NCBI GenBank assembly: GCA_000002445.1
Contig: CM000208.1
Span: 1,216,001-1,280,000, forward strand
DNA length: 64,000 bases
Reading direction: 5' to 3'
Origin: Trypanosoma brucei
Taxonomy: Eukaryota
The position numbers and the translations under genes are program-made. Below the pieces are notes generated by a model, which was given only the letters and a program-made list of their open reading frames with translations, searched no databases and had not been told where the DNA came from. Position 1 is the first letter of the stretch, and every line of letters begins with the position of its first letter. Positions 13,382-61,636 of this stretch are shown here, in pieces.

Positions 13382-13536
13382 ATCAACTCACGGCTATGTG
13401 CATGCACATACGCTCAAAAATTTTAAAAATCCGATGGGTCATTTTTTAGTCGCACACAGTAAATAAAATAATAGCAGAGGAGAGCGAGGAAGTGAGTCAA
13501 AAAGATTAGATGGAACACAACATCGGAGACAAACAT

Positions 13537-13932: not shown

Positions 13933-13980
13933 ATCCCTAATAACGACTACCTCAACGATCAACTTGCCTATTTCTCCCAC

Positions 13981-16900: not shown

Positions 16901-19566
16901 TCATCAATATTTCAACGAAGGGAAGACAGGGTCGGTTTTAATATGCGGCCGCCGAGTATCGGAGCAACGGTGGAGCCCCAACGTATCCGTAGTGTTCAAC
17001 CCCCTCCGTTGCGGTCTCCGCGTCCCCGCTCCTCATTGTTCGGCCGCTTTTGAAGACGCCACGTTGAGACTGGAACCTGTGTCTTGCCGCTTTTGCTGGA
17101 AAGAGGAAGGAAGATCACTGTGGCCACTAACAGTGGAGGGTCGGGTGTCGTGAGATGTGTCTATCTTCCGTTGGGGTTTTCTTCTTGGGAAAGCGGTTTA
17201 CCTTAGTGGGCGGCGGTAACCTGTTCTATTTGGAAGGATGTCGTGCAGGGGGTGAGTGAGTTTTCTTGACCAAGTTTACGAATTTGTTGTGCACCCCTGT
17301 TTTATCCCACTGCTTGAAGTGTTTCGGAATAGATGATAGGGAGGATGGTATGGCAAGAAACCTGCCGGGACCTTTACCGTTTCACCGCTGACTACATGTT
17401 CCCACAATTTTCTACCATATCCTTCGGGCGGCATTGCAGTGAGAGTGCCATGTGGGACAGGGGACAGATTGGAACTTGATCTTCCGGAGGTCTTCGGAGT
17501 TATAGAGTGATTGCTTCTCTTCTCCTTTCCTTTGGCGTGACTCTCATACGGAGGCTCTTGGTGAGCAGGATACAATTCGCCTGCTGACTTTTTGGTTTAT
17601 TTTTTCCCATATTTCAGTGTTGCGGGGTCACTTTCGGCACCGTTGGGAATCGAGAAGTGACGTATAAAGGTGTTCGCTTCTGCAGCAAAAAGTGGTTCCG
17701 TTTGGTATTCATTTGTGGAGACACTTTCCCTCCTTTCCATTTCGGAAAACTTTTTGTCACGGAAGAAGGGCTTTTGGTATTGTCCCGTCCGATGATCTTT
17801 GCCCCGATCGTTCCATCATGAATAATAGCTACAACTGTGTGTGTCTGTACGGCTGTGGATATTTCCCCAGTCCCCAATCGCTTCGGTCGCTTTTACTCTT
17901 TTATAGCACGGTTTAGAGTTGGTAAACTGGTGCCGTTCTGTGGAAGCAGTGGCCGGAGGAAAGTGTGGGGTGAAGTCGTTAGCTCGTTTGAGTTGACGCA
18001 GGCCTTGGAGAATGTCATGTGGTGACCTCCGTGGGCTGTGGCCGTGTCGCCAATTTGTGGCGGCGCAGTCCTTTGATGTGACTGAATCGGGTGCATAACT
18101 TGTTCTCCGGCCATGCTCACGGTTTTTTTTGTTTTCGCTGCCGCTTCAGCCGTCTTCTCCCCAGCAGATTATGAAATATGGTCCGGCGCGTGGGGGAAAT
18201 GAGTTGGTTCCACCCAAGAACGTTGGAGCCAGAGGCCTATGCTGCCTTTTCCCGTGTGTATTTGTGAAGGGGGGGGGGACGAGGCTCAGAGGAGCGGCAT
18301 GTCCATTTTTTGTGAATCCTCTTTGTCCACTGGGGAAGGAGATTGAAGTCAGGGTTGCCTGGGGGGATGACTCAATGCGCGCCGTCGGATGAGCAAACTT
18401 ATGTTTAGCGGCCCTTGTGGTGATTGCGTCAACCGGTGGGTCGACGGTAGTGGTGAGCTCAACTTCTGTTTTTGAGTTGCCGGAGCTCCGCCGCTGTGCC
18501 GGCAAAGGGGAAGGTTGGTACTGGTTAGCCCTCAGGGTACAGAGTTTGGTCTCAAATACACTGAAGGCGCCCCCTACTCGGCAGCCGCGCCTCTGAGCGC
18601 TGTTCGCCCGGATGAGTTGGTTCGTAGATGCTGCACTGGGCGCTGTGTAAAGCTCGTGGGGGGTTGGAATGGATGTGATAATCGCGTAGCAGTTTAGTGA
18701 GGATGGCGTCGACGGCGACGCCCTTTCGCATCCCTGAAGTCTTTAATATGTCTGTTCTTGTTCGACGAGGGGTTTGCTGCGGATCCCACCAAGAGTTGGT
18801 CTCGCAGTATTTTGGCCGCGGCTCTGCCCACGCTGGGTGAATTGCGCTTTGCCTGGTTTCCCCCGCCAGAGCGGGGTACAGTGGCCGGGCTGCGCGTGTG
18901 GGGTGCCGTCATTGCTGAGTGTGTCGGTGTTGTGCCCGCCCCGTTCCTGTTGCGTTAAGCAGGATTGGGCCCGGTGGGGGTTTGGTGACTCCAACCGAAG
19001 CGTCGGCATGTGGATGCGCCCCATCGTTTCTGGTGGCTGACATGTTTGGTTTCGTCGTATTGGGCCCAGGGTTATAGTGGGCGACAGGGTCTGGCTTGCG
19101 TAACCCGTCGCTTTTTCTTGTTGGCAGTTGGTGCCTTTTATTCGACGGTGGTGGCGTTTTCTGGAAATCGGTCCCCGTTCTGGGGTTCTGTCGTTGAAGG
19201 ACTCCTTGTACTTACCATATTATGATATGCATTTTGTTTGCCACCGTATGGCTTCGTTTTCTGTTTGCGTCCCTAACAGAGCAGGTGGTATCGTGGATAC
19301 CGGCGGTGCGAGGGGTTGTGCATGTTATGGCGGGCTTTGCACGACGAGCCTTGAATCCACCTTTTTTAATTATTTCAGTTCGGATTGCAGGTGATGTGCT
19401 TGCCCACACCCTGCAATTTGTTTAAAGTTTAATGGCAGTGCCGATGCCATTTTTGTCTTGGCGTATGCTAGGCGCGTGAGTTGTAGATGTCTAAGAAAAT
19501 AGTGTTGATATAGCCCTCTGTTTTTTGTTTAAGTGGTGATGTTATTGTTTTTCTTTAATCTTCCTG
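13981..19566. promoter_or_regulatory. Divergent strand-switch region (bidirectional pol II transcription start region) with no protein-coding genes
   Basis: Genes to the left are all on the minus strand and genes to the right all on the plus strand. The 5.6 kb between them contains only short, compositionally driven ORFs. The plus strand is CA-rich at 14.0-16.0 kb (so the minus strand is GT-rich) and GT-rich at 17.0-19.5 kb, with a G10 run at 18269-18278. This outward-pointing GT skew matches the GT-rich promoter elements described at trypanosome transcription start regions. Confidence 0.6.
18269..18278 (+). repeat. G10 homopolymer tract inside the strand-switch region
   Basis: The sequence aagggggggggggacgagg, read directly. 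Confidence 0.8.
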
Positions 19567-38102: not shown

Positions 38103-41439
<3,337 letters not shown>

Positions 41440-45832: not shown

Positions 45833-48800
45833 AATTAAGTGCGGTCGTTGGGAGGGCGACATGTTAACGCACAGGCGGGTGTTTGGGAGGAAAAAGGGGG
45901 GGAAAAAAAGGAAGAGAGATGGTCGTGTTGTTACGGTTTCTTCTTCCGTATACTCGCTTCTTCCCTTTTGTTTCTGTTTTCCTTTCCTAGTTTTACCAAC
46001 CTGTGAGGGCAGTGGATGTTCGTATGTTCAGACGTGAAGGTTTTCCCCCTTTTCGTCTTCTATTACTGCGTGTCGCAAGTGGTTTTTTTTTTTTTAGGGG
46101 GGGGGTTGAGGGTGTTATTACAGGTGGAATGATAGGGGGAGAGACTAGATAAAAAGGGAATGTTTGGGAGGCTAAAAACAAAAGCAAAAACTGAAAGAGA
46201 TTAAAAATGGGTGGAGAGTGAAATGAAGGGAAGATAAGAAAAATCGAAATGTTATTTTGTTTGGCAAGGCGTTGTGGTGGCGTCATGACGCTGGGAAACA
46301 AAAAAAATTTTGCCAGAGAAATGGCTGTTTCTTTCATGGATTTTGCAGTCTGACTCTGTAGATGTCACTGTCCCGTGCCCCCTATGCTGGCAGCTCCGGG
46401 ACTATTCTTTTCTTTTATGTGTAGCAGTTCGGTTGACTTGCGGAGTCCTTATGTTGACTCTCGTTGTTGTTGTTGTTGTTGTTGTTGTTGCTTCCTTCCC
46501 CAACACAGAGCCTCTGCTTCTGTTGGTTGGTTGATGTGGTGCATAATTTTGTTTGCATTTTTTTTTTTCTGTACCTTCCGATCCCTTTCTTTTCTTTCCT
46601 CAAACACTTCCTATTTCTACATGTCTCCTGTGGGGCCACACTCGGGATGCAATTAACAGTTGTGTCCAATGCTCGTGCAATGGTGGTAACTGCAATTAAT
46701 AAATTAACTAATTTGTTTGAGCAAGGAGAAGGACTTTATGTGACTGTTGCCATGCCGTAAGGAATGTGGAAACGAGTATTTGAGGGAGGTTTGAAAGGAA
46801 TGTGTAACCCGTTCGAATGGGAAATGGGACTAACAGGATGATGAGTGTGACATTACGACATTTGTTAATAAAAGGTCGATGATTTTATAAATTTACGACA
46901 GATTAGGAATGGACGAGCATGTGTGTGAAGTGTGACGTGTGAAGTATGGAGGGTGAATGGAAGAGGTGTCGGAGAAGAAAAAAAAAGATGAAATAAAAAT
47001 AAGCAAGGGATGGGGAACAGAAATGCATAGGTGCAACAGAGAGAGCGCGTGAGAGGTGGTTGGCAACGTTTGTGACGTGCATGAATGGGAAATGGGGGGT
47101 GGAGTGGTTCATAACGTAGGTCGAACGGCCCTTTTTTTTTTTTCCTCTCTGGTCTTTAAATATAGAGGAATAATTGAAGCGGATTCCGTCAAATAGAATT
47201 CAGAGGGAGGGAGGGAGGGGGGAAATTCGCATTTGCCCCGCACTGTCCCTTTATATGCATTTCCCTCTTTCGTTGTACCTGTTGGTTGGCGTCTTTTTCT
47301 TACCATTTGTTTTTTTTTTTTAATCTCCCGGTGCGGTTTGTGTTTGTGTGGCGTCATCATTATGTCGTCCTGTGATTTATTTGGGCAGTGTGCTCGTGTT
47401 GGCGTTTGTTTTTTTCTTTTTTTCTTTTTTTCGCTTTCGCACCCGCGTGTGTCGCTGTTACCGCTTCTACACCCGCCTTTCCTTATATTTTTGGCCATGC
47501 ACCACCCCGTCAGCTGCTGGTTGGCTTCATTCTGACAGAGAACTATGAGCACAGAAGAAAAATAAAAAAAGAAGGAAGAGCAAGAAGAAGTGGAAGAAAA
47601 AGAGGAGGAAGGGGAGCGTGGGCTAGCAAATATTGTATGCTTTGAAGGGGGGGGGGGTTTCTTTCTTCTTGTTATTGTTGTTTAGCTTTGCGTTCCTTTT
47701 CATTTTCTTCCGTCTTGTAAATGGTAGTATGCAAACGAATATATACATATATATATATATGTATATGTGTGTGTTTGTGTGTGTGTTTGTGTAATATGAC
47801 GATACCGGGGTTCACCAAGACCAGTTGGCTGTTGGGCCTGGGCCTGCTCTTTGGTGGACGATAATTATATGACGCACACATATTCCCTTCTGTCAGTTTT
47901 GTGCTCGTGTAATCTTTTTTTTTTTTCGTAGCCCAGCTTTTGTTCTATGCTGTACGGGTGTGTATGTGCGAGCACCATATGTAGCGCACACTGTTTGCCT
48001 TCCACTCTCTCTTTGTATATGTGTGTACATGTGTGTGTTACTTTTTTTTTTGTGTGTTTTTTTTGTTTTCTTATGTTGGTGGTTGCTTTTGTCTTTTTTG
48101 GTCGGTTTCCGTCTATTACTATATTATTATTATTATTTCCACCACAGCTTCCATTGGTGCCTCTTGCCATCAATTGCCGCTTGCTTTCACAATTCAAAAC
48201 CCGCTTGAGCTCACGGTTGTTTCGCCGCGTAGTGTGGACTTTAATGATTTACTCTTTTTATCTATGTTTATTTATTTATCTATATATTTATATCTATTTA
48301 TATTTTTATATATATGTCTGTGTGTTCCTCCTTTAGTTACCCGAAGTCTCCGTCGTTCCCTTTCTTTCTTTCTTCCTAAACCCCTTCTTTGTTGTTGCTC
48401 TTACGTTGGGCATGCTGTATTTTGTGTTGCGTCCTTGCGGCGTGTACTGCACATCTGAAAATGGCTTAAATCTCTTCCAGTACACGTCTTCCCTTTTTCT
48501 TTTTTTCTTTTTCCCCCCCATTCCTCTTTACTTCGTGTGCTTATCGTTCTGATTTCTCGTATTCACGTACTTGTAGCAGGCATCAGTGCTATTAGCGCAT
48601 ACACACGCTATTTTAATGTAACAAAATCAAGTAAAATGCAGCTACCCGATAGAGGGATATCATTTTCTCGAAAGCATCAGCAGTGGAACTGCCATCGAGA
48701 GATATGTGAGGTTTTGGGTTACGCGACACGCAGAAGTAACCGGATGGCGATGCAAAAGAAATAACAAAAAAAAAAAGAAAAAAAACATGTTGATCCGGTT

Positions 48801-49387
48801 GGAGTAAAGTGTGGGGAGCTTCATAATTCGTTTTTTTTTTACTTTCCTCACCTCTTTCTCTTTCTCTCTCTTTTTCACTGCTCTCATATGGAGCGTGAGC
48901 GGGCGGCGTTTGTATTTACTCCAGTTGTGGCACTGCTCTTCCAATTTCTCCTCTTGAGTGTCAATTTATTACTGTGCTGTGTTCTCATATATTCCAATGA
49001 TGTAGTGTGTGTGTATGTGTGTTCTATGAGGCATGCAACTATTTTTATTATTTTTTTTAAAAATAGCCCGTGTGCCATACTGATACCTCCGTTGGTAATG
49101 AATAAAATGTACACTCGCTTATTCGCCCATTGAATAAATTCTCGATGCCTTTTTTTTTCCATATATATCCCACACCCTCATTTAATACACCGAATCTTGA
49201 AAATTTTATTTTATTTTTATGTGCGTGTGAGAGTAAAGGACGAAAAGAAAACAACGCCAGGAGCAGAGGGAGTAATCATAGCTTTAACGTGGCATTTCAA
49301 CATTTGTGCGGGCAATAGCGTCGTGTGAAACAGGGTGTGTATTAGTGGTGTGTTTGTGAGAGGGGCGGGTACTTTTCTAGTTTAAAA
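45833..49387. repeat. 3.5 kb ORF-free low-complexity tract between MAPK and CCCH genes; contains (GTT)9 (46463-46490), G-runs (46096-46104; 47645-47656), (GGGA)4 G4 motif (47205-47222), AT-rich microsatellites (48250-48320)
   Basis: Read directly from the sequence; only low-complexity ORFs occur here. Probably the MAPK 3'UTR plus the CCCH gene 5'UTR. Confidence 0.7.
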
Positions 49388-50932
49388 ATGTATCGGCCAA
49401 CTAACAGATGCGTGGCGGATGTGGGACAGGGAAACCCACCAAACTTACAGCAAGTTATGTATTCAGGTTCTGTGCCGCAGACGGCGCCCGTGCAAATGCA
49501 ACTTCATCCGCATCCGCAGTCGCAGTCGCATATGGTAATGCGGCCGCAAGCGCATACAATGGCGACAGCAGTGAACTCCAAACCCAAAGTTCACGTCGTC
49601 AGTCGAAGCCCACCTTCGCGAAGTGGCGCCTCTCAAGGCGAGCGTAGCGGTACCGTTCGTTTTGTGTGCCCGCGTACGAACACCATTGTGTGTGCAAGGT
49701 ATAATCGTACCGTGCACACACGCGCAAAGCTCCAGCATGGTGCAGTTATTTGTGAGGATTACATGCACAAGTTGCACTGCCCAGAGGGTGATCAATGCCT
49801 TAAGGTGCACGTTGCAGCGGAACACACATGGAACTATATTCTACCACATATTGGTGCCCCACAAGGGATTTTCCAACATGGTTTCACAGTTCGGTGTTTC
49901 CACCCCAGCATGACGGAGTACTTCAACATCCCCAGTGAACTCGTGTACTACACAAAGGGAAGCATGGAGTACATCTACGATTATAATGAGCATGGTGATA
50001 ACTCCAAGAAAAAATTTGTACTGTGTGAAGAAATGATCAATAACAGAATATGCATGTCCGGTATGGCTTGCGAGGACGTCCATGCTGTCATGGACGACTT
50101 TAGTTCCGTAGGTAGAAACAGCACACACATCGTCGATGAGAAACTGCTTCCGCTCTATCCGCGCCTTCGTCCCGATGTTGTGGTGCGTGTGTTTGAGCAA
50201 AACAGTACTGAAGAGTATAAGGACTACACTGGAGATCAGATTCTTGTGACGGATGGTGCGCGGCAGTATTTGTTGGCTCTTGATGTTGAGGGAGCCATCC
50301 CACGCAAAAAGATGCAACACTGCGCCCACTTCCGCACAAAACATCTTTGCCGCATGGGCAGTGGCTGCAACTTCATTCATGTCCTGCAAGGTCTCGTTGC
50401 GAATGCTGAAATCAGCCCACGGTCCACGTCTCGTAGTGATTCGCCAACTTCTGAACTGAGTATCAGCGTGCGCAACCGTCCAATTGCCTTGCGGCAGTCT
50501 GGCAGTCAGGTTGCAGAGATGTTGGCTGAGAAATATGGATTATCCCGGGATGAAAATAGTCAGGTAGGACGTCATGCATCTCCTTTTGTTAAGCAACCAC
50601 CGAATGAAATGGCGTCTCTCCCTCTCTGTGATGGGGGGCTCTTTCAAAGTAATACCAAATCCCAGGGAAATGCTGTTATTAACAGCAACATTAACGGCAA
50701 TTATAACAAAGAATACTGCCGGAACGACGATTTGTTTCCTTGCGGCGCAGCTGATGCCGGGGACGAGAGGGTAACGCAACGTAATCAACAGGGTGAGCAA
50801 ATACATGACGGTACGCAACCCGTTGCCGTATGCTCCAGATTCCGTCAGATAAGTCCACCACGTCGCAATAATCCATACGCTTCACCTGTTCTCAGCCAAC
50901 AGGCATCGCCACACCCTCGTGAAACCATCTAA
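49388..50932 (+). CDS. CCCH-type zinc finger protein with three C-x8-C-x5-C-x3-H fingers (ZC3H family RNA-binding protein), 514 aa
   Basis: ATG start. Three perfectly spaced fingers: CEDYMHKLHCPEGDQCLKVH, CEEMINNRICMSGMACEDVH and CAHFRTKHLCRMGSGCNFIH. The N-terminus is Q/H/P-rich and the C-terminus is N/Q-rich low complexity. Confidence 0.8.
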   Translation: MYRPTNRCVADVGQGNPPNLQQVMYSGSVPQTAPVQMQLHPHPQSQSHMVMRPQAHTMATAVNSKPKVHVVSRSPPSRSGASQGERSGTVRFVCPRTNTIVCARYNRTVHTRAKLQHGAVICEDYMHKLHCPEGDQCLKVHVAAEHTWNYILPHIGAPQGIFQHGFTVRCFHPSMTEYFNIPSELVYYTKGSMEYIYDYNEHGDNSKKKFVLCEEMINNRICMSGMACEDVHAVMDDFSSVGRNSTHIVDEKLLPLYPRLRPDVVVRVFEQNSTEEYKDYTGDQILVTDGARQYLLALDVEGAIPRKKMQHCAHFRTKHLCRMGSGCNFIHVLQGLVANAEISPRSTSRSDSPTSELSISVRNRPIALRQSGSQVAEMLAEKYGLSRDENSQVGRHASPFVKQPPNEMASLPLCDGGLFQSNTKSQGNAVINSNINGNYNKEYCRNDDLFPCGAADAGDERVTQRNQQGEQIHDGTQPVAVCSRFRQISPPRRNNPYASPVLSQQASPHPRETI

Positions 50933-53408
50933 TTTGGAAAACCTGGAGTGTCCCTCTTATTCCACTTCCTTGCGTTTGTGTTTGTTTTGTGGACTTTGTT
51001 GTCTTTTCCGTTTTTGTTTATCTGTCTTTTTTTGTTTTTTTTTTTTACCCATCGTCCCATCATTTCTTTTCGTTTTTTCCCCCTTCCTTTCAGCTCCCTT
51101 TGCCCACGTTCGATTTATTTTCATACCTTTCCCCTTCGTTTTTTGTTTTTTCCTGCTTTTTTTTTAAAAAATATTGTGCCACCTTTTTCCCCCTTTTTTG
51201 TTTGTTTTATTCCGTTGCCGTGAGATGACATTAGTCTTTTACTGTTTTTGTTTTTGTTGTTTCCTCCTTCTTTTTTGCTGATGGCATTACGACTGTGCGC
51301 GGGAGAGAGAAGAGAAAAAAAATGGTAAAGGAGAATGTGACTGATATGTGAGGGGTGTTGAGGTAATTTATTGTTTTTTTTTTAAATAACTATTCTCCTG
51401 TTTCGTCTTATCCCCCACCAAACTCTGCTAAAGTCCTAAAATAGCTGGCGGGTTTGAGATGTGAATAAATTTTGTTTCCTTTTCACCTCCCTTTCTGCAG
51501 CTTTTTTGTCTTTTCAAGTTCCTTTTTTTTTCTTGCTTTCTTTTCCTTTTTTTTCCCCCTTTTCTTGTGCAACTGTGGTGGATGTTTGTTTTATTTGCCT
51601 GTGCGATTTGTGCGCCACTGATTGGGATGGAAAAAAAAAAAAAGGAAAAGAAAGAAAGGCAAGAGGGCGGCGGTGGTGAAAAGGAACGGAATTTGGATGC
51701 GCGTGCTTGTGTGTGTGTGAGAGAGAAAGAAAGAAAGAAAAGAGAAAGGTCATAGTAATGGTGACATCAATAATAATAATAATAATAGTAACAATAAATA
51801 TTATAATCGTAATCATAATCATGGTAATAATGGCAACGACACTAACGGAAGGGGGAAGGGAAAGGGAAAGGGAAAGGGAAAGAGAGAGAGAGAAAAAAAA
51901 AGGCAATACTATACAATTTGGTATGATATTTAATATGTGGTGTTAAGGGAGGGTGTCTTTTTTTTTCTTTTTCTCTAAGTATGTGTGTTGGGAGAGAATA
52001 TCTGAGGCTCCAGTTTTATACATCAATTAGTTTGGAAGTGTGAAATAATCGGGATGGGTAATTTTTCTTTTTTTTCTTTTTTTTTCTTTTATTGCTTGAT
52101 GCAGGAGACGAAATGCGGTGTGTGTGTAGGGGGGGGGGTCATTTTTTTTTCCCCCTTCCGTTTTCTCTTCTCTTCTCTTTTTTTTTAAATCTTGAATGAG
52201 CCGTTGTGCCGCATGTTTTGTGTTTGGTTTCCTCATTTCCATTTGAAGGACTGGGGCCGCTTTTTGTTCATTTTTTTCATTTTTTCATTTTTTCATTTTT
52301 TCATTTTTTCATTTTTTTTATTTTTCTTTTTTTTTTTTTTCATTTTTTCATTTTTTCCTTTTTTTTTTATTTTTCTCATTTTCTGGTCTTCATTTGAGGT
52401 ATGTGCGCCTCCCTTTTTTTTTTGTTTTTTTTTTTTGAACATGAGAGTTAACTGACGGATTGAAGACAAAAGACGCCAAACATTACAAGAGGGGAAGGGA
52501 AATGAATACGAGGGAGAAAGCGAAAAAGATTAAAAAAAAAAAAAGTCATTATCATCAGCAGTTGCGATGGAAAAAAAAAGGAGTGAAAAGGAAAAAAAAA
52601 AGACGAAAGCAAAAGAAGAAACCAAAAAAATAAATAAATAAATAGATAAAATGAGTAAATAAATATAAATATAAATGTGCGCGTGTATGTCAAGGGCAGA
52701 GAAAGGTGAATGCACAAAAGCTGATGTGCGCACCATGTTCTGTGATGGGGACGGAGGCTTAGATTGTATAAGTGCAAATGTATGTATGTTTTTCTTTTTT
52801 TCTCTTTTTTTCTTTTTTTACCTGGCCATGTTTCTTTGTTTTCATTTTTGGGACAATAAGCAAAAAAGTATACATATATTTATATGTGTGAAAGGTACAC
52901 AAGCAAAGAAAGAAAGAAAGAAAAATAAAAAGAAAAAAAAATATATATATATGTACACGTGTGTCTTTGTGTGTGATCCGTTGTCGAGGGGTTGTGGCCG
53001 CCTCTTGGAGCGGTTGCTTTTTTTTTTTTCTCTCTTCTTCTTTGAATTAACAAAATTTTCCGTACTTATATATTTAGAGCCCTCGTCTCGCTCAGTTTAT
53101 ATATGCCCAATTAGTGTGTCCATTGGGGGATATATTTGCTTGTGAGTTACTTAATTATACTTTTGTTTTTTGCAAAAAAAAAAACAACAATAACGGCAAC
53201 AGCTAACAAACGAAAAAGGAGATGAATGAACTGATAGGGGAGGAGCAGAAGGGAGCATCTTTTAGTTCTTTATGCCGTCAAACCCCAAATTTTATTTGTG
53301 TATTTTTTCTTTTTTCCATTTTGTTGTTTCTTTTTCTGAGATTTTTTAAAAATTAAAAATGATCGTGATAGGCGGAGGAAGGGTAAAACATAAATACATT
53401 TACATGCA

Positions 53409-53440
<32 letters not shown>

Positions 53441-56400
53441 TATATGCATATAATTGTATACATATGTGCCCACCTCCCCTTCCCTCCCCTCCCCCCAAAA
53501 TAAAAATAAAAATAAAATAAAATCATCCCTATCACACTTTTTTTTCTTTTTCTTTTTCTCACTTTCCTTTCTTTACGGGCTCCTCTATTCGGCATGCTTT
53601 CCTCTTATTTTCACCAATTAAGGGGAAGATGGAGGGGAGTGGTGGGGCTTGTTTTATTATTATTATTATTTTGGCAATTTGCTTTCATTCAATTTCATTT
53701 TATTTGCAGTTTCTTCTTTTTTCCCCCTTGTGTGTGTGTGTGTGTCTTATCGTTATTATTATCATTATTATTATTATTATAAATATTCCGGTTCTTTTCC
53801 TATTTATTCCGGCGCGTTACATATATATATATGTTTTGTGTCCTTTTACATTGATGTTCATGTTTTTTATTTTCCTTTTCTTTTCTTTTTTGCCACTGTG
53901 ATGATGACCGATGGCGCCAGTAATTATTATTATTATTATTATTTTTACCACTAGCGCTACCACCATAATTATTTTTGATATTATTCTTGATGTGTTTCAC
54001 GAAGGAGGAGAAATAAAACGAAAAATTTGTTTTTTTTTCTTTTAAGAGAGGTAAAAGGTAAGCGAATATAATTATATAATAGGAAGTGTACATCACAAAT
54101 GAAGGTTTAGAGTTGAGGAGTGCGTGTGGTGACGGCAAAAAAGAAAAAAAAGAAATAAATGCAAAATCCAAAATGTCACATAAAGTAAGGTAAAGAGATA
54201 AGGTAAGAAGTGAAATGGAAAAAAAAAAGAAGAAAAGAAACCAATGGACCGTGGGCTACACGCAAAGCGACAGTGGAGTTGCAGTGCAGGGAAACGGAGT
54301 GGGAATGAGAAATGTGTCTACTTTATTTTTATTTTTATTTTTCGTCTTTTCTCAATTTAAAAGACAAAAAAGAAAAGAAATATTTTTATTTTGTTCTTTT
54401 TATTATCTTACCTTACCTCACTTTTTCTTTTTGTTTCCTCTTTATCCTTAATGACAGTTTATCGTATCCTTTACGTTTCCCGCTCCAGAGCCAAATCCTT
54501 AAATCCCTTTTCCTTTATATGTTTATTTATATATTTATTGTTTTTTTTATATGTTTTCTCCCCTTTGCTTCAACACTTAGAAGGTATGATGTGCGAGGAT
54601 GTTGGTGTGGTGTAAAACGAAATCAAAAAAAATATAATAATAATAAATGAAAAAAATGAAGAAAAAATAAAAGATGAAAAACTGGTGGAGTTGTACAATA
54701 GAAATAAATAAAAAAAAATATATATATATATAAGCGGGTTATAGTTGTCTTCATACGTTGTCTTGTATATCCGCTCTTTATACGTTTACTATTTTTATTT
54801 TCATTTTTTTCTTTCGTTTTCAATGAATGAGCACATTTATATATATATATATATATATATAGATATATATTTCTATTTATATACACACAAACAGTCATGC
54901 AGTTATACACTTATGTCTTATATACTCTCTTTCACACACCATAAATTATATACACATGTCACATTTTTTTTCATTTTTTTTTTTGAACTGGAGATCTCTC
55001 TTATTGATTTCATTATATACTTCTCATTTTTTTTCTTTTTAGTGGTGTTATGCTGATGTTTGTGCTTGTGTATTTGTATTATTGTGCCCGTGATTTTCTT
55101 TATTATTAACATTATTAATAGTAATAATATTAATATTATAATATTATTATTATTTGATTTTATTCGGATTTATACTCTCCTCCTTTTTCTTTCTTTTCTC
55201 TTTTGTTATATGAAAAAAAAAATAACAAGAAAAAAGTTGTTTTTCGTCAACTGCTTGAAGCAACCACCACAACAACGGCAAATGTTTTATTGTTGTTGAA
55301 GTCGGAAATATTTTTCCGTAACCCTATCGTATATGATGTTGTAGAGATTTAGGTGCCAACTTTTTTTTTTTAAATTTAATTATTTATTTAATTAATTGTT
55401 TATTCTCCTCCTACTTTCACTTTTCTTTAATTTTGTTGTGATGCAAATTTTGGAAAGTAGATTTCTGTTGGGACAGAAAGAAGAAAAGTGATAGAAAGAC
55501 ACGAGAAAATAAAAATAAAAGAAAATAAAAAGAGACTTCAAAAAGGCAAGAAAAAAAAAGAGAAAAAAAGAAAGAGAAAAAGAAGAAAAGTAGAGAGAAA
55601 CAAGAAACATGAAAGATATGTTGAATGGTACCGTTTGTTTTTTTTTTTTGCCGCGGTGGCATTTCAAATATATCTTTTTTTTTCAATTTTTCAAAACTTT
55701 AATAGAGAGAAGCAAAAAATGAAAGAAAATCAAAAGAAATGAAAGAAAATAAAAGAGAACAAAAACGGAAGGGAATTGGACAAGTTGTTACGAAGTTGCG
55801 CTGAAAAAAAAAACCCATAGGAGAACATTTGCGGGGTGATTCTTTTTGTTTTTTTCTAGAGAGAAAATGTTTTTTTTTCTGGTATGATCGTAATAGTAAT
55901 AATATTGACAATAATAATAATAATTGTTTTTTTTGTTATTGTGTATTTACTTTTGAGTTTATTACTGCTGCAATTAAAAAAAAAAAAACACCACCAACAA
56001 CAACAACAACAACACACACACACAGGAAGGGAGAGGAGGGATGAGAAGAAAAAGGGAGAAAGAAAAGAAAAGAAACCGTTATGAGGTAAGACCTCGGATT
56101 TACCAAGCGTTTTTTTTTCTTGTTTGCTTGCTTGCTTGCTTAATCAATTAATCAAATTTTTATTTTGCTTTGTTTTATTCCACGCGTTTGCTACGATTTT
56201 TTTCTTTTTTTTCTTTTATTGTCATCATTTGTCATGATGATTCTTACTATTAATATTCTGTTGAACCCACATCCTTCCTCTATTCCATTATCTTATATTC
56301 CTCTCTCTTATGTTATGTTATGTTTCTTTTTTTTTTTTACTTTGCTCAACTTTAATTCGCAAACAAAAAAAGAATGAGGGGGGGGGAAAAAAAAAAATAC

Positions 56401-58339
56401 TCCCCTACTGGTCGTTATTTCTCTCATCTCGGTCGCACAACGCTAATGGTTTAGAGGCCGATTTGAATGAATGAATGAGGTGAAATCATTTTGCTTTTTT
56501 TTTCTTTTCGTTTTCGATTTCGATTTTGTTTTTTTTATTCATTTAAATTTATATACCCACGTGCGTTTACGCACGATTATACTGACGAGGATTTGTTGTC
56601 GTGTTATATAACCCTTCTTTTTTTTTTCGTGTGTGTGTTACCTCTAGTATTATTATTATTATTCCTGTCATTCCCATTATTATTATTATTGTTGTTATTA
56701 TTATTATTATTTCAAAATTCATGGGATGTGAGACAGTCGGTAGCACTAAATTTCAATATTTGCTTACTTTTATTTTATGTTTATGTTTAACTTTTTGTTT
56801 TTTTAAAAATTTGATAGGGATGTGGTTAAGTTGGTGGTGTGGGGCATCGATTAAATGAAATATGTTGTTGCTTTGTAGATGCTCTGCTCCTTCTACCTTT
56901 CACCTTCCCTTTTCTTTTCTTTTTTCTTTTTTCTTTTTACTATTATTATTATTATTTGGTTGGTTTCACTGTGCGTGTTATTACTTTAAGGTTTTTTTTT
57001 CCTTTTGTCACTGTAATTAAATTCTTGTTAAACAGTTGGGCTACTTAATATTCTTTTCTTTTTTTTTTCTCTCCAACCAAAAAAAGAAAAAAAAACGTTA
57101 TAAATGGCTACAGAAATGGAAGAAGAGGTGTTAGTTGTGCTTTTGTTTTGTAATGTAAGCAACTCCCCCTCCCCCACCTTTCAAAAAAGAAAAAAAAGAA
57201 AAGAAAAAAATATATACAAAAGGGACCGCGTGTTTGTGTTTTTGTGTCTCTTTTTTTTTCTTTTTTTTCTTTTTTGAAAGGTGGGGGAGGGGGAAGGGGG
57301 CGGGGCGGGGAAGGGAAGGGAAATTGAAAATTAAGATGAGGCAAAAGAAGACACTTTTTTTTTTAAAAAATTTCTCGTGTTTAACTTTATAGTTTCTGTT
57401 TGTCATTTGCATGCAGTTGCACATTAATAAATGTATAAATACACACCAATATGCATACGAATGTGAATATCATCTTCATTTCTCTTTTTTCCTTTTCTTT
57501 TCTCTATCTATCTTTTGTTTTTTTTATTTCAAAAAAAAAAAAAAACTACCTTCATTAGTTTGCGTAGAGGACGTGTGTGGCTTACTACCGTCTTCATCGC
57601 CGTACAGGTCAGGCGCACAACGGAAAGAAATTTGAGGTTCGTTACTTTTTTGCTCTTTTTTTTTTTAAAAAAAAAAAGATATTGGTTATATTTGGATAGG
57701 GCGAATATCACAAACTATTTTCGTTTTTGGTTTGCTTTGCTTGAGAAGAACGCACACATTTATTTATATAAATACATATAAATAAATAAAAAAAGGAACG
57801 AAAGAAAGAGTGAAGGAGTAGTGGGAAGGACAGGAGTAAGAAGACGATATATATATATACACGCACACAAAAAACAAAAGCAAAAGCAAAAGAAAAAAAA
57901 GAAAGAAAAAAAAGAAAGAAAGAAACAAGGAAGGGAAATTAGACACTCTCTTCCCCCCAAGGGGTACCCGCTTCATAGATATTATAAAGGAGCGAGAAAC
58001 CAAAGGTTGGAAGTGAAAGAAAGAGGAGGAGGAGTAAAAGGGGAGGGGGAAAAAAAAGAAAGAAAGCGAAGAATACAATCAAACAAACAAAACAAGGCTG
58101 GGAGAAAGTGAAAAATAGCCCGTAATCGTACGACTTACAATATTTGTTCCAGAGGCTCGCACATCTCCACTCCTCGTCCGCTTTGTTGAGTGACAAGGGA
58201 AGGTTAACAAAAACATACCGCTTCAAAAGGAGGGGAGGGAAGGGAAAAGAAAAGGCGACAATATTTAATTTTCCTTCAGAAGGGAGGACACCGTGTCCGG
58301 TAGCGCAGGCCTCTTTTTTTTTTTTTCTCCAAATTTTGT
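50933..58339. repeat. 7.4 kb ORF-free, extreme low-complexity tract (poly-T/poly-A blocks, (AT)n, (ATT)n, (CAA)n, (GAAAGG)n, (CATTTTTT)n, G/C homopolymers); candidate very long 3'UTR of the CCCH gene
   Basis: There is no ORF beyond translations of simple repeats (FFFFF, YYYYY, LLLLL, KKKK). Examples read directly: (CATTTTTT)5 52268-52313; (AT)13 53411-53436; (GT)9 53728-53745; (ATT)n 53640-53670 and 53915-53945; (CAA)6 56000-56020; (ATT)n 56651-56715; (GGGAAA)n 51841-51875. Confidence 0.75.
57164..57294. repeat. Perfect 35-bp inverted repeat (extendable to about 44 bp with one G-U) separated by about 60 nt: hairpin/cruciform element
   Basis: Left arm 57164-57198 tccccctcccccacctttcaaaaaagaaaaaaaag; right arm 57260-57294 cttttttttcttttttgaaaggtgggggaggggga, which is its exact reverse complement (verified base by base). 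The right arm runs into a G-quadruplex-prone tract ggtgggggagggggaagggggcggggcggggaagggaaggg (57280-57320). Confidence 0.85.
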
Positions 58340-58354
58340 TTGTACGAAGTGACG

Positions 58355-61300
58355 ATGCCTACGGCCGATTCAACCTCTTCTGTTTTCCTGAAGACCCCAG
58401 CGGGAAGGAAATACATTCTTGAGCCGCCCATTACTATTGGACAGTTGCTTGACGTAGCGGCAAACCAGCTTCTTCTTGAAGTCAGCAATGCAAAATTCTT
58501 TTTAAATGGCTCTCTACTGTACGCTGCAGGAAAAGATGATACGGGCGCAAATGCAAATGTACTTCAAGAGGAGATCATCATTCCTGGTGGGAGATCCATT
58601 ATTGTTGTGGCAAAACCACTCCAATGTGTGGCAAAGTGGGCCGCTGCAGAGGCAATGCGTAAAAAGGTTGACATAAAAAATAGCAGAGAACCACCTGACC
58701 AATCATCCCCGAAACGGTCGTGTGCTTCACCCCTTTCACCTTCTGAAAATGCTTCCCCACAAAGTGGCGGTGCAGACGAGCTCGCCAACGGTCCAAGTTT
58801 ATATGAATTTATGAAGCAGTTTATATTTCTTCAGGGACGCCGCGGGCTCCGACAAATGCTTTACATTGCCAGAAATCAGTACGGTGACTTCCCACGAAGC
58901 CTCCAAGATCACCAAACTATGGTGTCGATTGTAGAATATGTAGATCGAGATCCAACGCGACTGAGGGATGTTCTTCGTACCATCCTTGAGGAGGAGCCGG
59001 ATCTTTTTAGGTGGATTGAGGCAAATTCTGAGGTGTTTCTCGCGATAATTAACGGCCCTGTGCACCGACAGGAAGCGGCTTCTCCCGTATGGCTCATACG
59101 CAACATGACGGAGGCGTACCACAGACAAAATTCGAAGTGTGGTTTACCCCGTCGATTTGGCCAGCCAGAGAACCCCCAGCCGTTTCATGGCAGTGAGAGT
59201 CCTCAACAGAATGGTGAGGTCCCTGCATTGCGTTTGGTTGCTGCAACGCGGCCCCGCAACTTAGAGACGACCCACAACGCGGCGGCAAAATCGTCTTGCC
59301 AATCAGATATCCTCGTGGACGCTAAATATCGGAACGCTGCGGCGGAAAACACACTTGGTGCAGATGAGGAGGGTCGGCAACTCGTTGACGAAAGCATTGA
59401 GGCGGTTCAAACAACTTGCAATGCCTGGGAAGTTGCAAAGGATCGCTGGATGGTACCTGCTGAAGGTAACACAAATGTACAAGTAGTAAACCACCTGATG
59501 TGCTCTCGTCTTCGAGAGGCACAGGAGTCTCTACTGCAGAGCATGGAAGGTTACATGGTGTCACAACCGCCGTTATCTATGCTACAGAAAGTCTGTGAGC
59601 TTGGACAACAGTTGTGGCAGGACGGTGAACAATGGCTCATCAAACAAAACGATGTATTGGGTGCCTTTCAACACGCGTTGGCCTGTTTACTGTTTGAAAC
59701 AGGGAGGGATTTGCTTACAGACTTTATTGACGCGAATAGCAAAAGTCCCCGTGGTTCACTGCGAAAGAAGATTCCAGCACGGGAAGGTGTTGAATACCAC
59801 CCCTTGCTGGATCCGTCTGTTAGCTGGATCACACCCAATGGACCGGAGTCTCTTGCCAACAAGTTACGGGACTATACTGTGCGTGAGGAGGTAACCGTTG
59901 TGGTTTACACTAAGCTGTCGCCGAACCATGCCAACGCCTACGTTATCCACACGGGGCGGGTTTATGTTGAACCGCTGATAGTCGACGATACGGCAAGGTA
60001 CGAGCTGGAGGATTTGGAAGTGTTATATTCTCTCATCTCATCAAGGGAATTTTTATTGCAGGACCCAGGAATGCGGAAGGTAACAGAAAGCAACTGGAAC
60101 GACCTTATGGTCAAGTTGTACAAAAGATTCATAAGCCCTATTGGGATGCTTCTTCCGCAACCTGCCCATGATGTTAGTTCTCCCTTGTGTGAGGTGAAGC
60201 AGGTTTGCTTTATTCACACGTGGTCCTCCAGGCACATTCCGATCCCATTTCACGCGTTACTCAACCCAGTGGACTCAAAACCATGTGTCTTACGGTGGGC
60301 ACCATTCGTTGCAGAGCGGCCTTGGCACCTTTTGGTAAGCGAGGGGATACCATGGTCCACTCCAGTTCCGCAGTCTCCCGTGATAACACGGCTTACCGCC
60401 CCTATTGCCTTTAGGCGGGAACCTCGGGAACCGGACAGTTGCTTAGTTTCGAAAACAAATATGGTAACGTACGTGAATGTTAACGGTACGCATTGCTCAT
60501 CATTTGGGGAAAAGGAGTTGAATCAACCCTTGGGGGTGCTAAACAATGGACCAGTAGCGGATGAAGGGGGCATGTGGCAGGATGTACCATGGAAAACGTG
60601 GCTGACTGACGCGTTAGGGGACGTTCGCGCCGGTATTCCGACTCATGCTTCTATGTTTGGCCGTGATGAGCGTCACTTTAAAAATACCGCACTTCTCATT
60701 CATGAGGTGACGCGCGGCTCCGGAGATGACGCCAATTGTGAAGCCAACGGAGCGGATGGATCGGCGGAGGTAATCCGCGCAAAAACTCACTCAGTGATGA
60801 TGGACAGACGAGTGCCGTATAATCAGGGTTCTGATCTGTTTGTTTCTCACGTCTGTGGTCGTGAGAGTGGTGTGGGCATTCACCGCTGTGCACTTTTGCC
60901 CGCCTTTAAAGTAAGTGAATATGAGCCGATAGAGGTGTACAATGCATTCTTCAGGCTTCTTGTTGAGACTGAAAACGCAACCACTGCACAGGCGTATCGC
61001 ATGGCGTTGTTAGAATCATGGAGCTCTAATTTCAAGGAGGAGCCCTGGCGCTACACATCAGTAATGCTTTTTAACTACGGAGGTCCCATGAAAACGCTCG
61101 AGCACCTCTGTGGGGAGGGATCCGAGCCGCTCTCTGTAGTCAGTGAGGAGACAATAATAAATAATGTATCGGAACAAGCTGAGGTGCCTAGAACTCATAC
61201 AGTTGGGAAGAGAACGAAGCGACTTTCTGCTCACCGTGACACAACGAATGGACGCTATGTGGAGGGCCGCGCCATCGACGTTATTTACGATGTCGTATTG

Positions 61301-61636
61301 CATGGCCTTTCCACCAGTCGTCCGGAGGGAATGGTTGCTATCCTAGATTGTATGATTGGTTGCATTGAGAAAAACCGTATAAGCCTCGAAAAATCTATAA
61401 AGAGACGACAGAAAAAACAGGACAAGGCATCGAAACAACTCAGTCTCTATTTGTGCTCCCGTTCATCACCAACTGGGGGCCACTCCGCCCGTGGCTCGCC
61501 TGGAACTGCGTCCGCCAGAGGAAAGGCTCATGCATCAAGAGGGAATTGCAACAAAGCTAATGATGAGATCCAAGAGGGAGTTATCTCACCACCTTCGGGA
61601 CGAGGAGGGAAACGATCTCCATTCAAGCGGCGCTGA
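58355..61636 (+). CDS. Large hypothetical protein (about 1093 aa) with N-terminal ubiquitin-like domain and a Rad23 XPC-binding/STI1-like helical motif
   Basis: The track start is TTG (58340); the first ATG is at 58355 (MPTADSTSSVFLKTPAGRKYILEPPITIGQLL...). VFLKTPAGRKYILE aligns with ubiquitin IFVKTLTGKTITLE. A later segment, LYEFMKQFIFLQGRRGLRQMLYIARNQYGDFPRS...DLFRWIEANSEVFLAIINGP, resembles the Rad23 XPC-binding domain (..FIQMLNEP). The remaining roughly 800 aa has no recognised family. Confidence 0.55.
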   Translation: MPTADSTSSVFLKTPAGRKYILEPPITIGQLLDVAANQLLLEVSNAKFFLNGSLLYAAGKDDTGANANVLQEEIIIPGGRSIIVVAKPLQCVAKWAAAEAMRKKVDIKNSREPPDQSSPKRSCASPLSPSENASPQSGGADELANGPSLYEFMKQFIFLQGRRGLRQMLYIARNQYGDFPRSLQDHQTMVSIVEYVDRDPTRLRDVLRTILEEEPDLFRWIEANSEVFLAIINGPVHRQEAASPVWLIRNMTEAYHRQNSKCGLPRRFGQPENPQPFHGSESPQQNGEVPALRLVAATRPRNLETTHNAAAKSSCQSDILVDAKYRNAAAENTLGADEEGRQLVDESIEAVQTTCNAWEVAKDRWMVPAEGNTNVQVVNHLMCSRLREAQESLLQSMEGYMVSQPPLSMLQKVCELGQQLWQDGEQWLIKQNDVLGAFQHALACLLFETGRDLLTDFIDANSKSPRGSLRKKIPAREGVEYHPLLDPSVSWITPNGPESLANKLRDYTVREEVTVVVYTKLSPNHANAYVIHTGRVYVEPLIVDDTARYELEDLEVLYSLISSREFLLQDPGMRKVTESNWNDLMVKLYKRFISPIGMLLPQPAHDVSSPLCEVKQVCFIHTWSSRHIPIPFHALLNPVDSKPCVLRWAPFVAERPWHLLVSEGIPWSTPVPQSPVITRLTAPIAFRREPREPDSCLVSKTNMVTYVNVNGTHCSSFGEKELNQPLGVLNNGPVADEGGMWQDVPWKTWLTDALGDVRAGIPTHASMFGRDERHFKNTALLIHEVTRGSGDDANCEANGADGSAEVIRAKTHSVMMDRRVPYNQGSDLFVSHVCGRESGVGIHRCALLPAFKVSEYEPIEVYNAFFRLLVETENATTAQAYRMALLESWSSNFKEEPWRYTSVMLFNYGGPMKTLEHLCGEGSEPLSVVSEETIINNVSEQAEVPRTHTVGKRTKRLSAHRDTTNGRYVEGRAIDVIYDVVLHGLSTSRPEGMVAILDCMIGCIEKNRISLEKSIKRRQKKQDKASKQLSLYLCSRSSPTGGHSARGSPGTASARGKAHASRGNCNKANDEIQEGVISPPSGRGGKRSPFKRR

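What the first reader, a model, noticed from the sequence alone, without database searches (positions are those of the whole stretch)
50933..58339. 7.4 kb ORF-free, repeat-saturated tract downstream of a triple-CCCH RNA-binding protein gene: candidate giant regulatory 3'UTR
Typical intergenic spacing elsewhere in the window is 0.2-1 kb, but no gene is found for 7.4 kb after the ZC3H stop. The tract is built from T-runs, A-runs, (AT)n, (ATT)n, (CAA)n, (GGGAAA)n, (CATTTTTT)n and G/C homopolymers. In trypanosomes, developmental regulators (RNA-binding proteins, kinases) characteristically carry multi-kilobase, low-complexity 3'UTRs that mediate stage-specific mRNA stability and translation. The same pattern, on a smaller scale, surrounds the ERK8 and OB-fold genes (2.7 kb and 3.5 kb tracts). 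Alternatively the tract could hide a non-coding transcript or a small-RNA cluster.
Basis: partly seen in the sequence, partly recalled or inferred. Interest (0 to 1): 0.5.

Follow-up and report, generated by a model that had tools for sequence, protein, structure and literature searches.

The report
Long repeat-rich spacer after trypanosome ZC3H31
The 7.4 kb repeat-filled, gene-free stretch is real and is most likely the very long 3' untranslated region of the Trypanosoma brucei RNA-binding-protein gene ZC3H31, an already well-known kind of feature in this parasite, though the public annotation gives this gene a 3' UTR of only 114 bases.

Summary
The window is Trypanosoma brucei TREU927 chromosome 10. 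The upstream gene is ZC3H31 (Tb927.10.5150, three CCCH fingers) and the downstream gene encodes a 1093-aa protein with an XPC-binding domain.

- The gap is 7,422 nt, 31.8% GC and 28% simple repeats.
- It has 49 polypyrimidine and 39 polypurine tracts of 15 nt or more, about three times the shuffle expectation.
- No ORF is credible, and there are no tRNAs or Rfam families.

Sequence is not conserved.

The literature shows that multi-kilobase, low-complexity 3' UTRs are typical of trypanosome RNA-binding-protein and kinase mRNAs. That proximal site looks mechanistically plausible.

I could reach no direct transcript data. The giant-UTR reading is therefore the best explanation (about 0.6) but is not shown. 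The main rival is proximal polyadenylation with the rest released as non-coding RNAs.

Verdict: an ordinary new member of a known kind, of low interest.

The parts
48489..48576 (+). Polypyrimidine tract (48489-48560) and the first downstream AG (48575-48576). This is the trans-splice acceptor implied by the annotated 811-nt 5' UTR of ZC3H31.
   Evidence: The annotated transcript of 2,470 nt minus the 1,545-nt ORF and the 114-nt 3' UTR leaves an 811-nt 5' UTR. 49388 - 811 = 48577, which is the base immediately after that AG.
49388..50932 (+). ZC3H31 (Tb927.10.5150) coding sequence: 514 aa, three C-x8-C-x5-C-x3-H fingers and a C-terminal NNPY motif.
   Evidence: Exact match to TREU927 EAN77933.1. 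ORF length of 1,545 nt matches the published table. NNPY motif. Invariant CCCH columns.
50933..51046 (+). The 114-nt 3' UTR as annotated in the database. It ends at the last T of a T12 run.
   Evidence: PMC5842037 supplementary table; sequence.
51126..51165 (+). A 40-nt polypyrimidine tract starting 80 nt downstream of the annotated proximal poly(A) site; the first AG follows about 57 nt after it. It is a candidate internal processing signal that would explain the proximal site.
   Evidence: In T. brucei the poly(A) site lies about 100 nt upstream of the active polypyrimidine tract (PMC6597758). The link between this tract and the proximal site is inferred.
50933..58354 (+). The low-complexity, gene-free tract itself: the candidate long 3' UTR of ZC3H31.
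52263..52384 (+). The (CAUUUUUU)n array, which forms the longest internal polypyrimidine tract (114 nt, 79% U), with an AG 12 nt downstream. By length it is the strongest cryptic splice signal in the tract.
57164..57294 (+). Near-perfect hairpin with 44-nt arms and a 43-nt spacer. The spacer is inverted in other strains.
57788..58255 (+). Purine- and A-rich block just upstream of the last polypyrimidine tract: the predicted zone of distal polyadenylation. It would give a 3' UTR of about 7 kb and an mRNA of about 9.5 kb.
   Evidence: Polypurine tracts. The distance rule and the preference for strings of A. The position is inferred, not measured.
58310..58348 (+). Polypyrimidine tract (58310-58330) and first AG (58347-58348): the predicted trans-splice acceptor of the downstream gene.
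   Evidence: Inferred.
58355..61636 (+). Downstream gene: a 1093-aa protein with an XPC-binding domain, probably Tb927.10.5160.
   Evidence: Pfam PF09280. Exact match to TREU927 EAN77934.1, whose accession is consecutive with that of ZC3H31. The Tb927 identifier is inferred from gene order.

Best explanation
The tract is the spacer between ZC3H31 (Tb927.10.5150) and the next gene on T. brucei TREU927 chromosome 10. It contains no gene.

It lies inside a unidirectional polycistronic unit, so RNA polymerase II transcribes it with its neighbours (inferred from gene orientation).

In trypanosomes a poly(A) site is placed about 100 nt upstream of whichever downstream polypyrimidine tract is used for trans-splicing. 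The tract nearest the next start codon is usually preferred. The default product should therefore be a ZC3H31 mRNA of about 9.5 kb:
- an 811-nt 5' UTR
- a 1,545-nt ORF
- a 3' UTR of about 7 kb, ending in the A-rich block near 57.8-58.25 kb

The 49 internal polypyrimidine tracts are cryptic processing signals. Nuclear RNA-binding proteins such as DRBD18 and DRBD3 presumably mask them. When one is used, it gives a shorter isoform, including the annotated 114-nt UTR, plus a non-coding by-product.

The long U-rich, A/G-rich, (AU)n and (UAU)n stretches would act as a redundant platform for many RNA-binding proteins. These keep the mRNA scarce and make its level depend on life-cycle stage and stress. 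This function is inferred by analogy with RBP10 and ZC3H20-22.
For: Identity and context.

No gene or structured RNA:
- ORFs are within chance and are broken between strains.
- None of the seven largest ORFs exists in the protein collection.
- TREU927 protein accessions for the flanking genes are consecutive.
- No Rfam family reaches threshold and there are no tRNAs.
- tblastx between species finds nothing.

Conserved architecture:
- The gap after the ZC3H31 orthologue is 7.3-7.6 kb in three T. brucei strains, 5.6 kb in T. cruzi and 5.5 kb in T. melophagium.
- It is at least 4.0 kb in T. rangeli, where the contig ends.
- In every species, neighbouring gaps are 0.3-0.9 kb and the ERK8-ZC3H31 gap is 1.8-3.6 kb.

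Known biology:
- The longest 3' UTRs are in RNA-binding-protein and kinase mRNAs; the RBP10 3' UTR is 7.3 kb (PMC8982893).
- The DRBD12 mRNA is 8.4 kb, and DRBD18 masks internal polypyrimidine tracts (PMC9380746).

Indirect evidence for a long mRNA: ZC3H31 ORF reads are 4.3-fold lower after poly(A) selection (log2 2.1, padj 6e-14). The authors attribute this behaviour to long mRNAs.

Weak sign of sense-strand selection: the RBP10 destabilising motif UAUUUUUU occurs once on the sense strand against 6.2 expected, and nine times on the antisense strand. ZC3H31 mRNA is enriched in the bloodstream/slender form.
Against: - The database-derived annotation gives a 114-nt 3' UTR. That site sits 80 nt upstream of a 40-nt polypyrimidine tract, so it is a plausible real processing site.
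- With 49 internal polypyrimidine tracts, heavy internal processing is possible.
- No Northern blot, long-read or poly(A)-site data for this gene could be reached.
- The poly(A)-selection effect is not specific. RBP3, annotated at 3.4 kb, shows a similar ratio.
- No primary-sequence block is conserved between species.
- Within T. brucei the tract diverges at least as fast as other intergenic DNA: 1.2-1.9% mismatches plus about 5% indel columns. Base-level constraint is therefore not evident.
Confidence: 0.6

Rival explanations
1. Proximal processing dominates. Most ZC3H31 mRNA ends about 114 nt after the stop, as annotated. The remaining 7 kb is cut at internal polypyrimidine/AG sites into one or more trans-spliced, polyadenylated non-coding RNAs, or into unstable by-products.
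For: - Annotated 3' UTR of 114 nt.
- A 40-nt polypyrimidine tract at the right distance downstream of that site.
- 49 polypyrimidine tracts, most with an AG within 60 nt.
- T. brucei has about 1,400 AT-rich, intergenic, spliced-leader-capped and polyadenylated lncRNAs (PMC9200285).
- Such by-products are documented (PMC6597758 figure 3; PMC9380746).
Against: - Annotated 3' UTRs are known to be underestimates, and many 'lncRNAs' are segments of longer mRNAs.
- The polypyrimidine tract nearest the downstream AUG is usually preferred.
- ZC3H31 ORF reads behave like those of a long mRNA on poly(A) selection.
- A by-product gives no obvious reason for a gap of more than 5 kb to be kept across the genus.
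Confidence: 0.25
2. Neutral spacer. The tract is transcribed, but it is only accumulated microsatellite slippage with no sequence- or length-dependent function.
For: - No conserved blocks between species.
- Fast indel turnover between strains: about 360-380 gap columns in 7.4 kb.
- Its composition resembles other intergenic DNA, only longer.
Against: - The relative gap sizes along this syntenic gene array are reproduced in T. brucei, T. cruzi and T. melophagium although the sequence has turned over completely.
- Strand-asymmetric depletion of the RBP10 motif.
- Dissected long 3' UTRs of the same class contain several regulatory elements (PMC8982893).
Confidence: 0.12
3. The gap is a head-to-tail boundary between two polycistronic units (RNA polymerase II termination and re-initiation) or some other chromatin-level element.
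For: Only its unusual length and its mild G+T excess on the plus strand.
Against: - Both flanking genes are on the same strand.
- No tRNA or other small RNA genes are present.
- GC content (32%) and texture differ from the window's real strand-switch region, which is about 50% GC and has few simple repeats.
- Long 3' UTRs of RNA-binding-protein genes are a far more common cause of such gaps.
Confidence: 0.03
4. A hidden protein-coding gene or a small-RNA (snoRNA) cluster lies in the tract.
For: The T. b. gambiense DAL972 annotation has three 'hypothetical' genes here. The window has a 156-aa ORF.
Against: - All of these ORFs are low-complexity translations interrupted by stops or frameshifts in the other strains.
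- ORF length is within chance.
- None exists in a collection of 15 billion proteins.
- No gene is called here in the Lister 427 annotation, and the TREU927 flanking-protein accessions are consecutive.
- No Rfam family reaches its threshold. The sub-threshold hits are only hairpin-like matches to microRNA models from plants and animals.
- No tandem unit is longer than 24 nt.
Confidence: 0.02

Closest known systems
RBP10 (Tb927.8.2780) 7.3 kb 3' UTR of T. brucei
   Same: - It lies downstream of an RNA-binding-protein gene expressed preferentially in bloodstream forms.
- It is about 7 kb long.
- It is dense in low-complexity sequence, including (AU)n and polypyrimidine tracts (PMC8982893; PMC9380746).
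   Different: - The RBP10 UTR has been shown by Northern blot and single-molecule imaging to be one mRNA, and it has been dissected into at least six regulatory fragments.
- For ZC3H31 none of this exists, and the database says 114 nt.
- There is no sequence similarity.
Other long-UTR regulator mRNAs: ZC3H20/21/22 (3' UTRs longer than 4 kb), DRBD12 (8.4 kb mRNA), ZC3H32 (about 10 kb mRNA), ZC3H8 (6.6 kb)
   Same: - The same gene class: CCCH or RRM regulators.
- The same architecture.
- Some are lost on poly(A) selection in the same way.
   Different: - ZC3H20-22 carry two to nine RBP10 motifs and are repressed in bloodstream forms.
- The ZC3H31 tract has a single UAUUUUUU on the sense strand, and its mRNA is enriched in bloodstream/slender forms.
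Intergenic spliced-leader-capped, polyadenylated lncRNAs of T. brucei (the KS17gene set, e.g. grumpy)
   Same: They are AT-rich and non-coding, lie between protein genes, and are made with ordinary polypyrimidine/AG signals (PMC9200285).
   Different: - Those are defined by their own mapped spliced-leader and poly(A) ends.
- I could not find whether any is annotated here.
- Many such lncRNAs turn out to be pieces of longer mRNA UTRs (PMC12592628).

Membership tests
Long low-complexity 3' UTRs of trypanosome regulator mRNAs (RBP10 type) | Lies directly downstream of an RNA-binding-protein or kinase ORF, on the same strand, inside a polycistronic unit. | tested here: met
   ZC3H31 ends at 50932. 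All long ORFs from 19567 to 61636 are on the plus strand.
Long low-complexity 3' UTRs of trypanosome regulator mRNAs (RBP10 type) | No other gene or structured RNA lies between the stop codon and the next gene's splice signal. | tested here: met
Long low-complexity 3' UTRs of trypanosome regulator mRNAs (RBP10 type) | Multi-kilobase length, rich in polypyrimidine, (AU)n and other simple sequence. | tested here: met
   7.4 kb, 27.6% simple repeats, 49 polypyrimidine tracts against 16 expected.
Long low-complexity 3' UTRs of trypanosome regulator mRNAs (RBP10 type) | One mature mRNA runs from the spliced leader through the ORF and the tract to a distal poly(A) tail. | not testable with these tools
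   - No RNA data are available here.
- A published table gives a 114-nt 3' UTR, and its authors warn that such values are often too short.
- Loss on poly(A) selection (log2 2.1) is consistent with a long mRNA but is not specific.
Long low-complexity 3' UTRs of trypanosome regulator mRNAs (RBP10 type) | Confers stage- or stress-dependent expression on a reporter. | not testable with these tools
   Only correlative evidence: ZC3H31 mRNA is 2.1-fold higher in bloodstream than in procyclic forms and rises after heat shock, and it is a marker of slender forms.
Independent spliced-leader/poly(A) lncRNA locus | Transcript longer than 200 nt with no coding potential. | tested here: met
   No credible ORF.
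Independent spliced-leader/poly(A) lncRNA locus | Has its own mapped spliced-leader addition site and poly(A) site inside the tract. | not testable with these tools
   The signals are plentiful but their use is unknown. The supplementary tables I could read did not list a lncRNA next to this gene.
snoRNA or other small-RNA cluster | Matches to known RNA families, or reiterated units of about 70-150 nt or more. | tested here: not met
   No Rfam hit reaches its gathering score. The best sub-threshold hits are low-complexity hairpins. The largest tandem period is 24 nt.
Protein-coding gene | An ORF longer than chance, intact in sister strains and conserved in related species. | tested here: not met
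Boundary of a polycistronic transcription unit | A strand switch, tRNA/snRNA genes, or histone-variant and base J marks. | tested here: inconclusive
   There is no strand switch and no tRNA. Chromatin marks cannot be tested here.

The most novel reading that the evidence does not exclude
The length and low-complexity make-up of this spacer, rather than any sequence in it, is what selection maintains. A gap of more than 5 kb after ZC3H31 has persisted from T. brucei to T. cruzi and T. melophagium while every base has turned over.

That would mean the real ZC3H31 mRNA is about 9.5 kb, not the annotated 2.5 kb. The UTR would work through bulk properties:
- delay between transcription of the ORF and 3'-end formation
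- low abundance
- multivalent protein binding or granule recruitment
Probability: 0.2. Interest if true: 0.45.

Novelty: new member of a known kind. Interest (0 to 1): 0.2.

Why it matters
If confirmed, the ZC3H31 mRNA would join RBP10, ZC3H20-22, ZC3H32 and DRBD12 as a regulator mRNA with a giant 3' UTR. A roughly 60-fold under-annotation (114 nt against about 7 kb) would also be corrected. That error affects motif searches, UTR-length statistics and 3'-biased single-cell RNA-seq counting for this gene.

ZC3H31 is a marker of slender bloodstream forms, and its T. cruzi orthologue is listed as needed for differentiation. Its control elements are therefore of practical interest.

The cross-species conservation of gap size without sequence conservation is a small but testable pointer to selection on UTR length. 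Nothing here changes current understanding of trypanosome gene expression.

Tried and rejected
1. Hidden genes. ORF statistics, strain-to-strain integrity, exact look-up in a 15-billion-protein collection and tblastx between species were all negative.
2. Small RNAs. Rfam at gathering and at E<=1, and tRNA scans, gave nothing beyond low-complexity hairpin look-alikes.
3. Conserved sequence blocks between the T. brucei tract and the T. cruzi, T. melophagium and T. vivax tracts. blastn with word size 9 gave only low-complexity hits.
4. Dispersed repeat families shared with the 2.7 kb and 3.6 kb tracts. Only poly-T/poly-A-like families appeared.
5. RNA structure scan. The mean z-score is only slightly below that of coding sequence. 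The outliers are the 44-bp hairpin and an (AT)n palindrome.
6. Direct transcript evidence.
   - Supplements of seven papers were queried.
   - Only two had the gene with useful values.
   - Four had no supplements held or no entry.
   - No paper in the library discusses the ZC3H31 UTR.
7. Extending synteny to Leishmania and other genera. A profile search with ZC3H31 orthologues and a search with the 1093-aa protein returned no further species.
8. In a differential-expression table of PMC12592628, Tb927.10.5150 and Tb927.10.5160 both rise (log2 3.25 and 1.96). I could not establish which knock-down the table describes, so I draw no conclusion from it.


Full report
**What the window is.** The 514-aa ORF at 49388-50932 matches the T. 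brucei TREU927 protein EAN77933.1/XP_822761.1 exactly. The 442-aa kinase upstream matches EAN77932.1 exactly, and the 1093-aa protein downstream matches EAN77934.1 exactly. All three lie on a 4,054,025-bp record, so the window is TREU927 chromosome 10.

The kinase is ERK8 (Tb927.10.5140). The 514-aa protein is ZC3H31 (Tb927.10.5150), on three grounds:
- Published tables give that gene an ORF of 1,545 nt.
- They also record an NNPY motif. The window sequence has it near the C terminus.
- An alignment of 12 orthologues shows three invariant C-x8-C-x5-C-x3-H fingers.

The downstream protein carries an XPC-binding domain.

- The stop codon ends at 50932 and the next gene's ATG is at 58355.
- The 7,422-nt gap has the lowest GC content in the window: 31.8%, against 45-57% in coding sequence.
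- It also has the highest simple-repeat content: 27.6%, against 2-20% in other gaps and 7% or less in coding sequence.
- Homopyrimidine and homopurine tracts of 15 nt or more number 49 and 39. Local dinucleotide-preserving shuffles give 16.3 +/- 3.0 and 13.4 +/- 2.8.

**Is anything hidden in it?** No.
- The longest ORF (156 aa, 52675-53145) lies within the range given by composition-matched shuffles. It translates to low-complexity peptide and is interrupted in Lister 427 and in T. b. gambiense DAL972.
- The DAL972 annotation places three 'hypothetical' genes of 122-129 aa in the gap. They are poly-N, KG-repeat and poly-F/Y/I translations and are broken by stops or frameshifts in the other two strains.
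- None of the seven largest ATG ORFs exists in the 15-billion-sequence protein collection.
- The Lister 427 annotation has no gene in the gap, and the TREU927 accession numbers of the flanking proteins are consecutive.
- tblastx against the orthologous gaps of T. cruzi, T. melophagium and T. vivax finds only low-complexity matches. Those gaps contain only low-complexity ORFs.
- No Rfam family reaches its gathering score anywhere in the window. At E<=1 the tract gives only weak matches to hairpin-shaped microRNA models from plants and animals. There are no tRNAs.
- The largest tandem period is 24 nt. This argues against a reiterated snoRNA cluster.

**Comparative evidence.** The gene order OB-fold protein, LRR protein, ERK8, ZC3H31, XPC-binding-domain protein is conserved. 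The table gives the two gap sizes of interest.

| Species or strain | ERK8 to ZC3H31 gap | ZC3H31 to next gene gap |
|---|---|---|
| T. brucei TREU927 | 3.6 kb | 7.4 kb |
| T. brucei Lister 427 | 3.6 kb | 7.3 kb |
| T. b. gambiense DAL972 | 3.6 kb | 7.6 kb |
| T. cruzi | 1.8 kb | 5.6 kb |
| T. melophagium | 3.1 kb | 5.5 kb |
| T. rangeli | 3.1 kb | at least 4.0 kb (contig ends) |
| T. vivax | 2.9 kb | at least 1.9 kb (contig ends) |
| T. grayi | not covered | at least 1.5 kb (contig ends) |

- The other gaps in the array are 0.3-0.9 kb in every species.
- The pattern of gap sizes is thus kept across the genus, yet no sequence block is shared.
- Between T. brucei strains the tract shows 1.2-1.9% mismatches and about 5% indel columns. 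That is at least as fast as other intergenic DNA.
- So selection, if any, acts on length or composition rather than on specific bases.

**What the literature says about this kind of sequence.**
- It also says the poly(A) site is placed about 100 nt upstream of the polypyrimidine tract actually used for trans-splicing, with a preference for runs of A.
- The tract closest to the downstream AUG is usually preferred.
- Use of only the distal signal gives the upstream mRNA a long 3' UTR that contains unused tracts (PMC6597758).
- The longest 3' UTRs belong to RNA-binding-protein and kinase mRNAs. Examples are RBP10 (7.3 kb UTR), ZC3H20-22 (longer than 4 kb), DRBD12 (8.4 kb mRNA) and ZC3H32 (about 10 kb mRNA).
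- DRBD18 and DRBD3 suppress internal cryptic sites. Their loss gives truncated mRNAs plus non-coding RNAs.

**What is known for this gene.**
- A supplementary table of PMC5842037 lists Tb927.10.5150 with an ORF of 1,545 nt, a transcript of 2,470 nt and a 3' UTR of 114 nt.
- These numbers map exactly onto the window. The implied 811-nt 5' UTR starts at 48577, the base after the first AG (48575-48576) following a 70-nt polypyrimidine tract.
- The implied poly(A) site is at 51046, the last T of a T12 run.
- That site lies 80 nt upstream of a 40-nt polypyrimidine tract (51126-51165). This is close to the distance the processing rule predicts, so it may be a genuine alternative site.
- Against it, the same paper warns that database 3' UTR lengths 'are sometimes too short'.
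- In the same table, ZC3H31 ORF reads are 4.3-fold depleted by poly(A) selection (log2 2.1, padj 6e-14). The authors trace this behaviour to mRNA length, especially above 4 kb.
- This evidence is weak, because RBP3 (annotated at 3.4 kb) shows a similar ratio.
- No paper in the searchable library discusses the ZC3H31 mRNA length.

**Sequence hints about function.**
- The RBP10 binding motif UAUUUUUU destabilises mRNAs in bloodstream forms. It occurs once on the sense strand (6.2 expected) and nine times on the antisense strand.
- This fits an RNA that must survive in bloodstream forms. ZC3H31 mRNA is 2.1-fold higher there and is a marker of slender forms.
- The numbers are small, so this is suggestive only.
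- (UAU)3 occurs 24 times and (AU)5 25 times on the sense strand. (AU)n elements affected expression in the RBP10 UTR.
- A structure scan finds little beyond trivial palindromes and one striking hairpin.

**Most likely mechanism.**

Shown:
- The tract is gene-free and low-complexity.
- It is flanked by same-strand genes.
- Its size is conserved across species.

Established for the organism:
- Transcription is polycistronic.
- Poly(A) site choice is dictated by the downstream splice signal.

Inferred:
- The default mRNA uses the last polypyrimidine tract (58310-58330, AG at 58347-58348).
- That mRNA is polyadenylated in the A-rich block at 57.8-58.25 kb.
- This gives a 3' UTR of about 7 kb and an mRNA of about 9.5 kb.
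- Internal tracts are masked and are occasionally used.
- The UTR acts as a multivalent, redundant protein-binding platform that keeps the mRNA scarce and stage-regulated.

I put this at about 0.6. The main rival, at about 0.25, is that the proximal site dominates and the rest is released as non-coding RNA. A functionless spacer (about 0.12), a transcription-unit boundary (about 0.03) and a hidden gene or small-RNA cluster (about 0.02) are less likely.

**Verdict.** The finding is a new member of a known kind and a probable annotation correction, not a new phenomenon. Interest: 0.2.

Noticed in passing
window 57164-57294: A near-perfect hairpin inside the tract, with 44-nt arms that are 98% complementary and a 43-nt spacer. 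As RNA it folds at -80.5 kcal/mol with a z-score of -9.8. The arm sequence occurs nowhere else in the window. In Lister 427 and DAL972 the spacer is the reverse complement of the TREU927 spacer (0 mismatches when aligned in reverse, 19 when aligned forward). This is a small inversion polymorphism between inverted repeats. Its function is unknown; T. brucei has RNAi, so a 44-bp duplex could in principle be a Dicer substrate.
   Followed up: partly
window 13382-19566: A 6.2 kb divergent strand-switch region with few ORFs. Long ORFs are on the minus strand up to 13381 and on the plus strand from 19567. GC is about 50%, simple repeats are few, and the GC and AT skews flip across it. It is probably the transcription start region of the unit that contains ZC3H31.
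   Followed up: partly
L002 (T. b. gambiense DAL972) 8316-8774, 12194-12562, 13107-13496, 14247-14624: Four annotated 'hypothetical protein' genes lie in the long spacers around ZC3H31. All are low-complexity translations that are broken in TREU927 and Lister 427, so they are probably spurious gene calls.
   Followed up: yes
window 48577-49387: The annotated 5' UTR of ZC3H31 is 811 nt. [quoted passage not shown] ZC3H31 may therefore be controlled at both ends.
   Followed up: no
window 50933-58354, sense versus antisense strand: The RBP10 motif UAUUUUUU occurs once on the sense strand and nine times on the antisense strand (6.2 and 2.4 expected). This is a strand asymmetry consistent with selection on the RNA, but the counts are small.
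   Followed up: partly
L005, L006, L007 and the T. equiperdum contigs listed: Draft assemblies of several species end inside or just after this spacer. The T. rangeli contig ends 4.0 kb after the stop codon, T. vivax 1.9 kb after and T. grayi 1.5 kb after. The T. equiperdum ZC3H31 contig is only 3,032 bp. The repeats evidently break short-read assemblies, which may be why the locus is poorly annotated.
   Followed up: no
window 38103-40774 and 45833-49387: Two more long low-complexity spacers of the same type (2.7 kb and 3.6 kb, 17-19% simple repeats). The second would give ERK8, a kinase, a 3' UTR of up to about 2.7 kb. This fits the rule that kinase mRNAs also have long UTRs.
   Followed up: partly
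PMC12592628 supplementary file 1: Tb927.10.5150 (log2FC 3.25) and Tb927.10.5160 (1.96) rise together in an RNAi differential-expression table, alongside PUF4, DRBD12, ZC3H45 and many lncRNAs. I could not determine which knock-down the table belongs to.
   Followed up: partly
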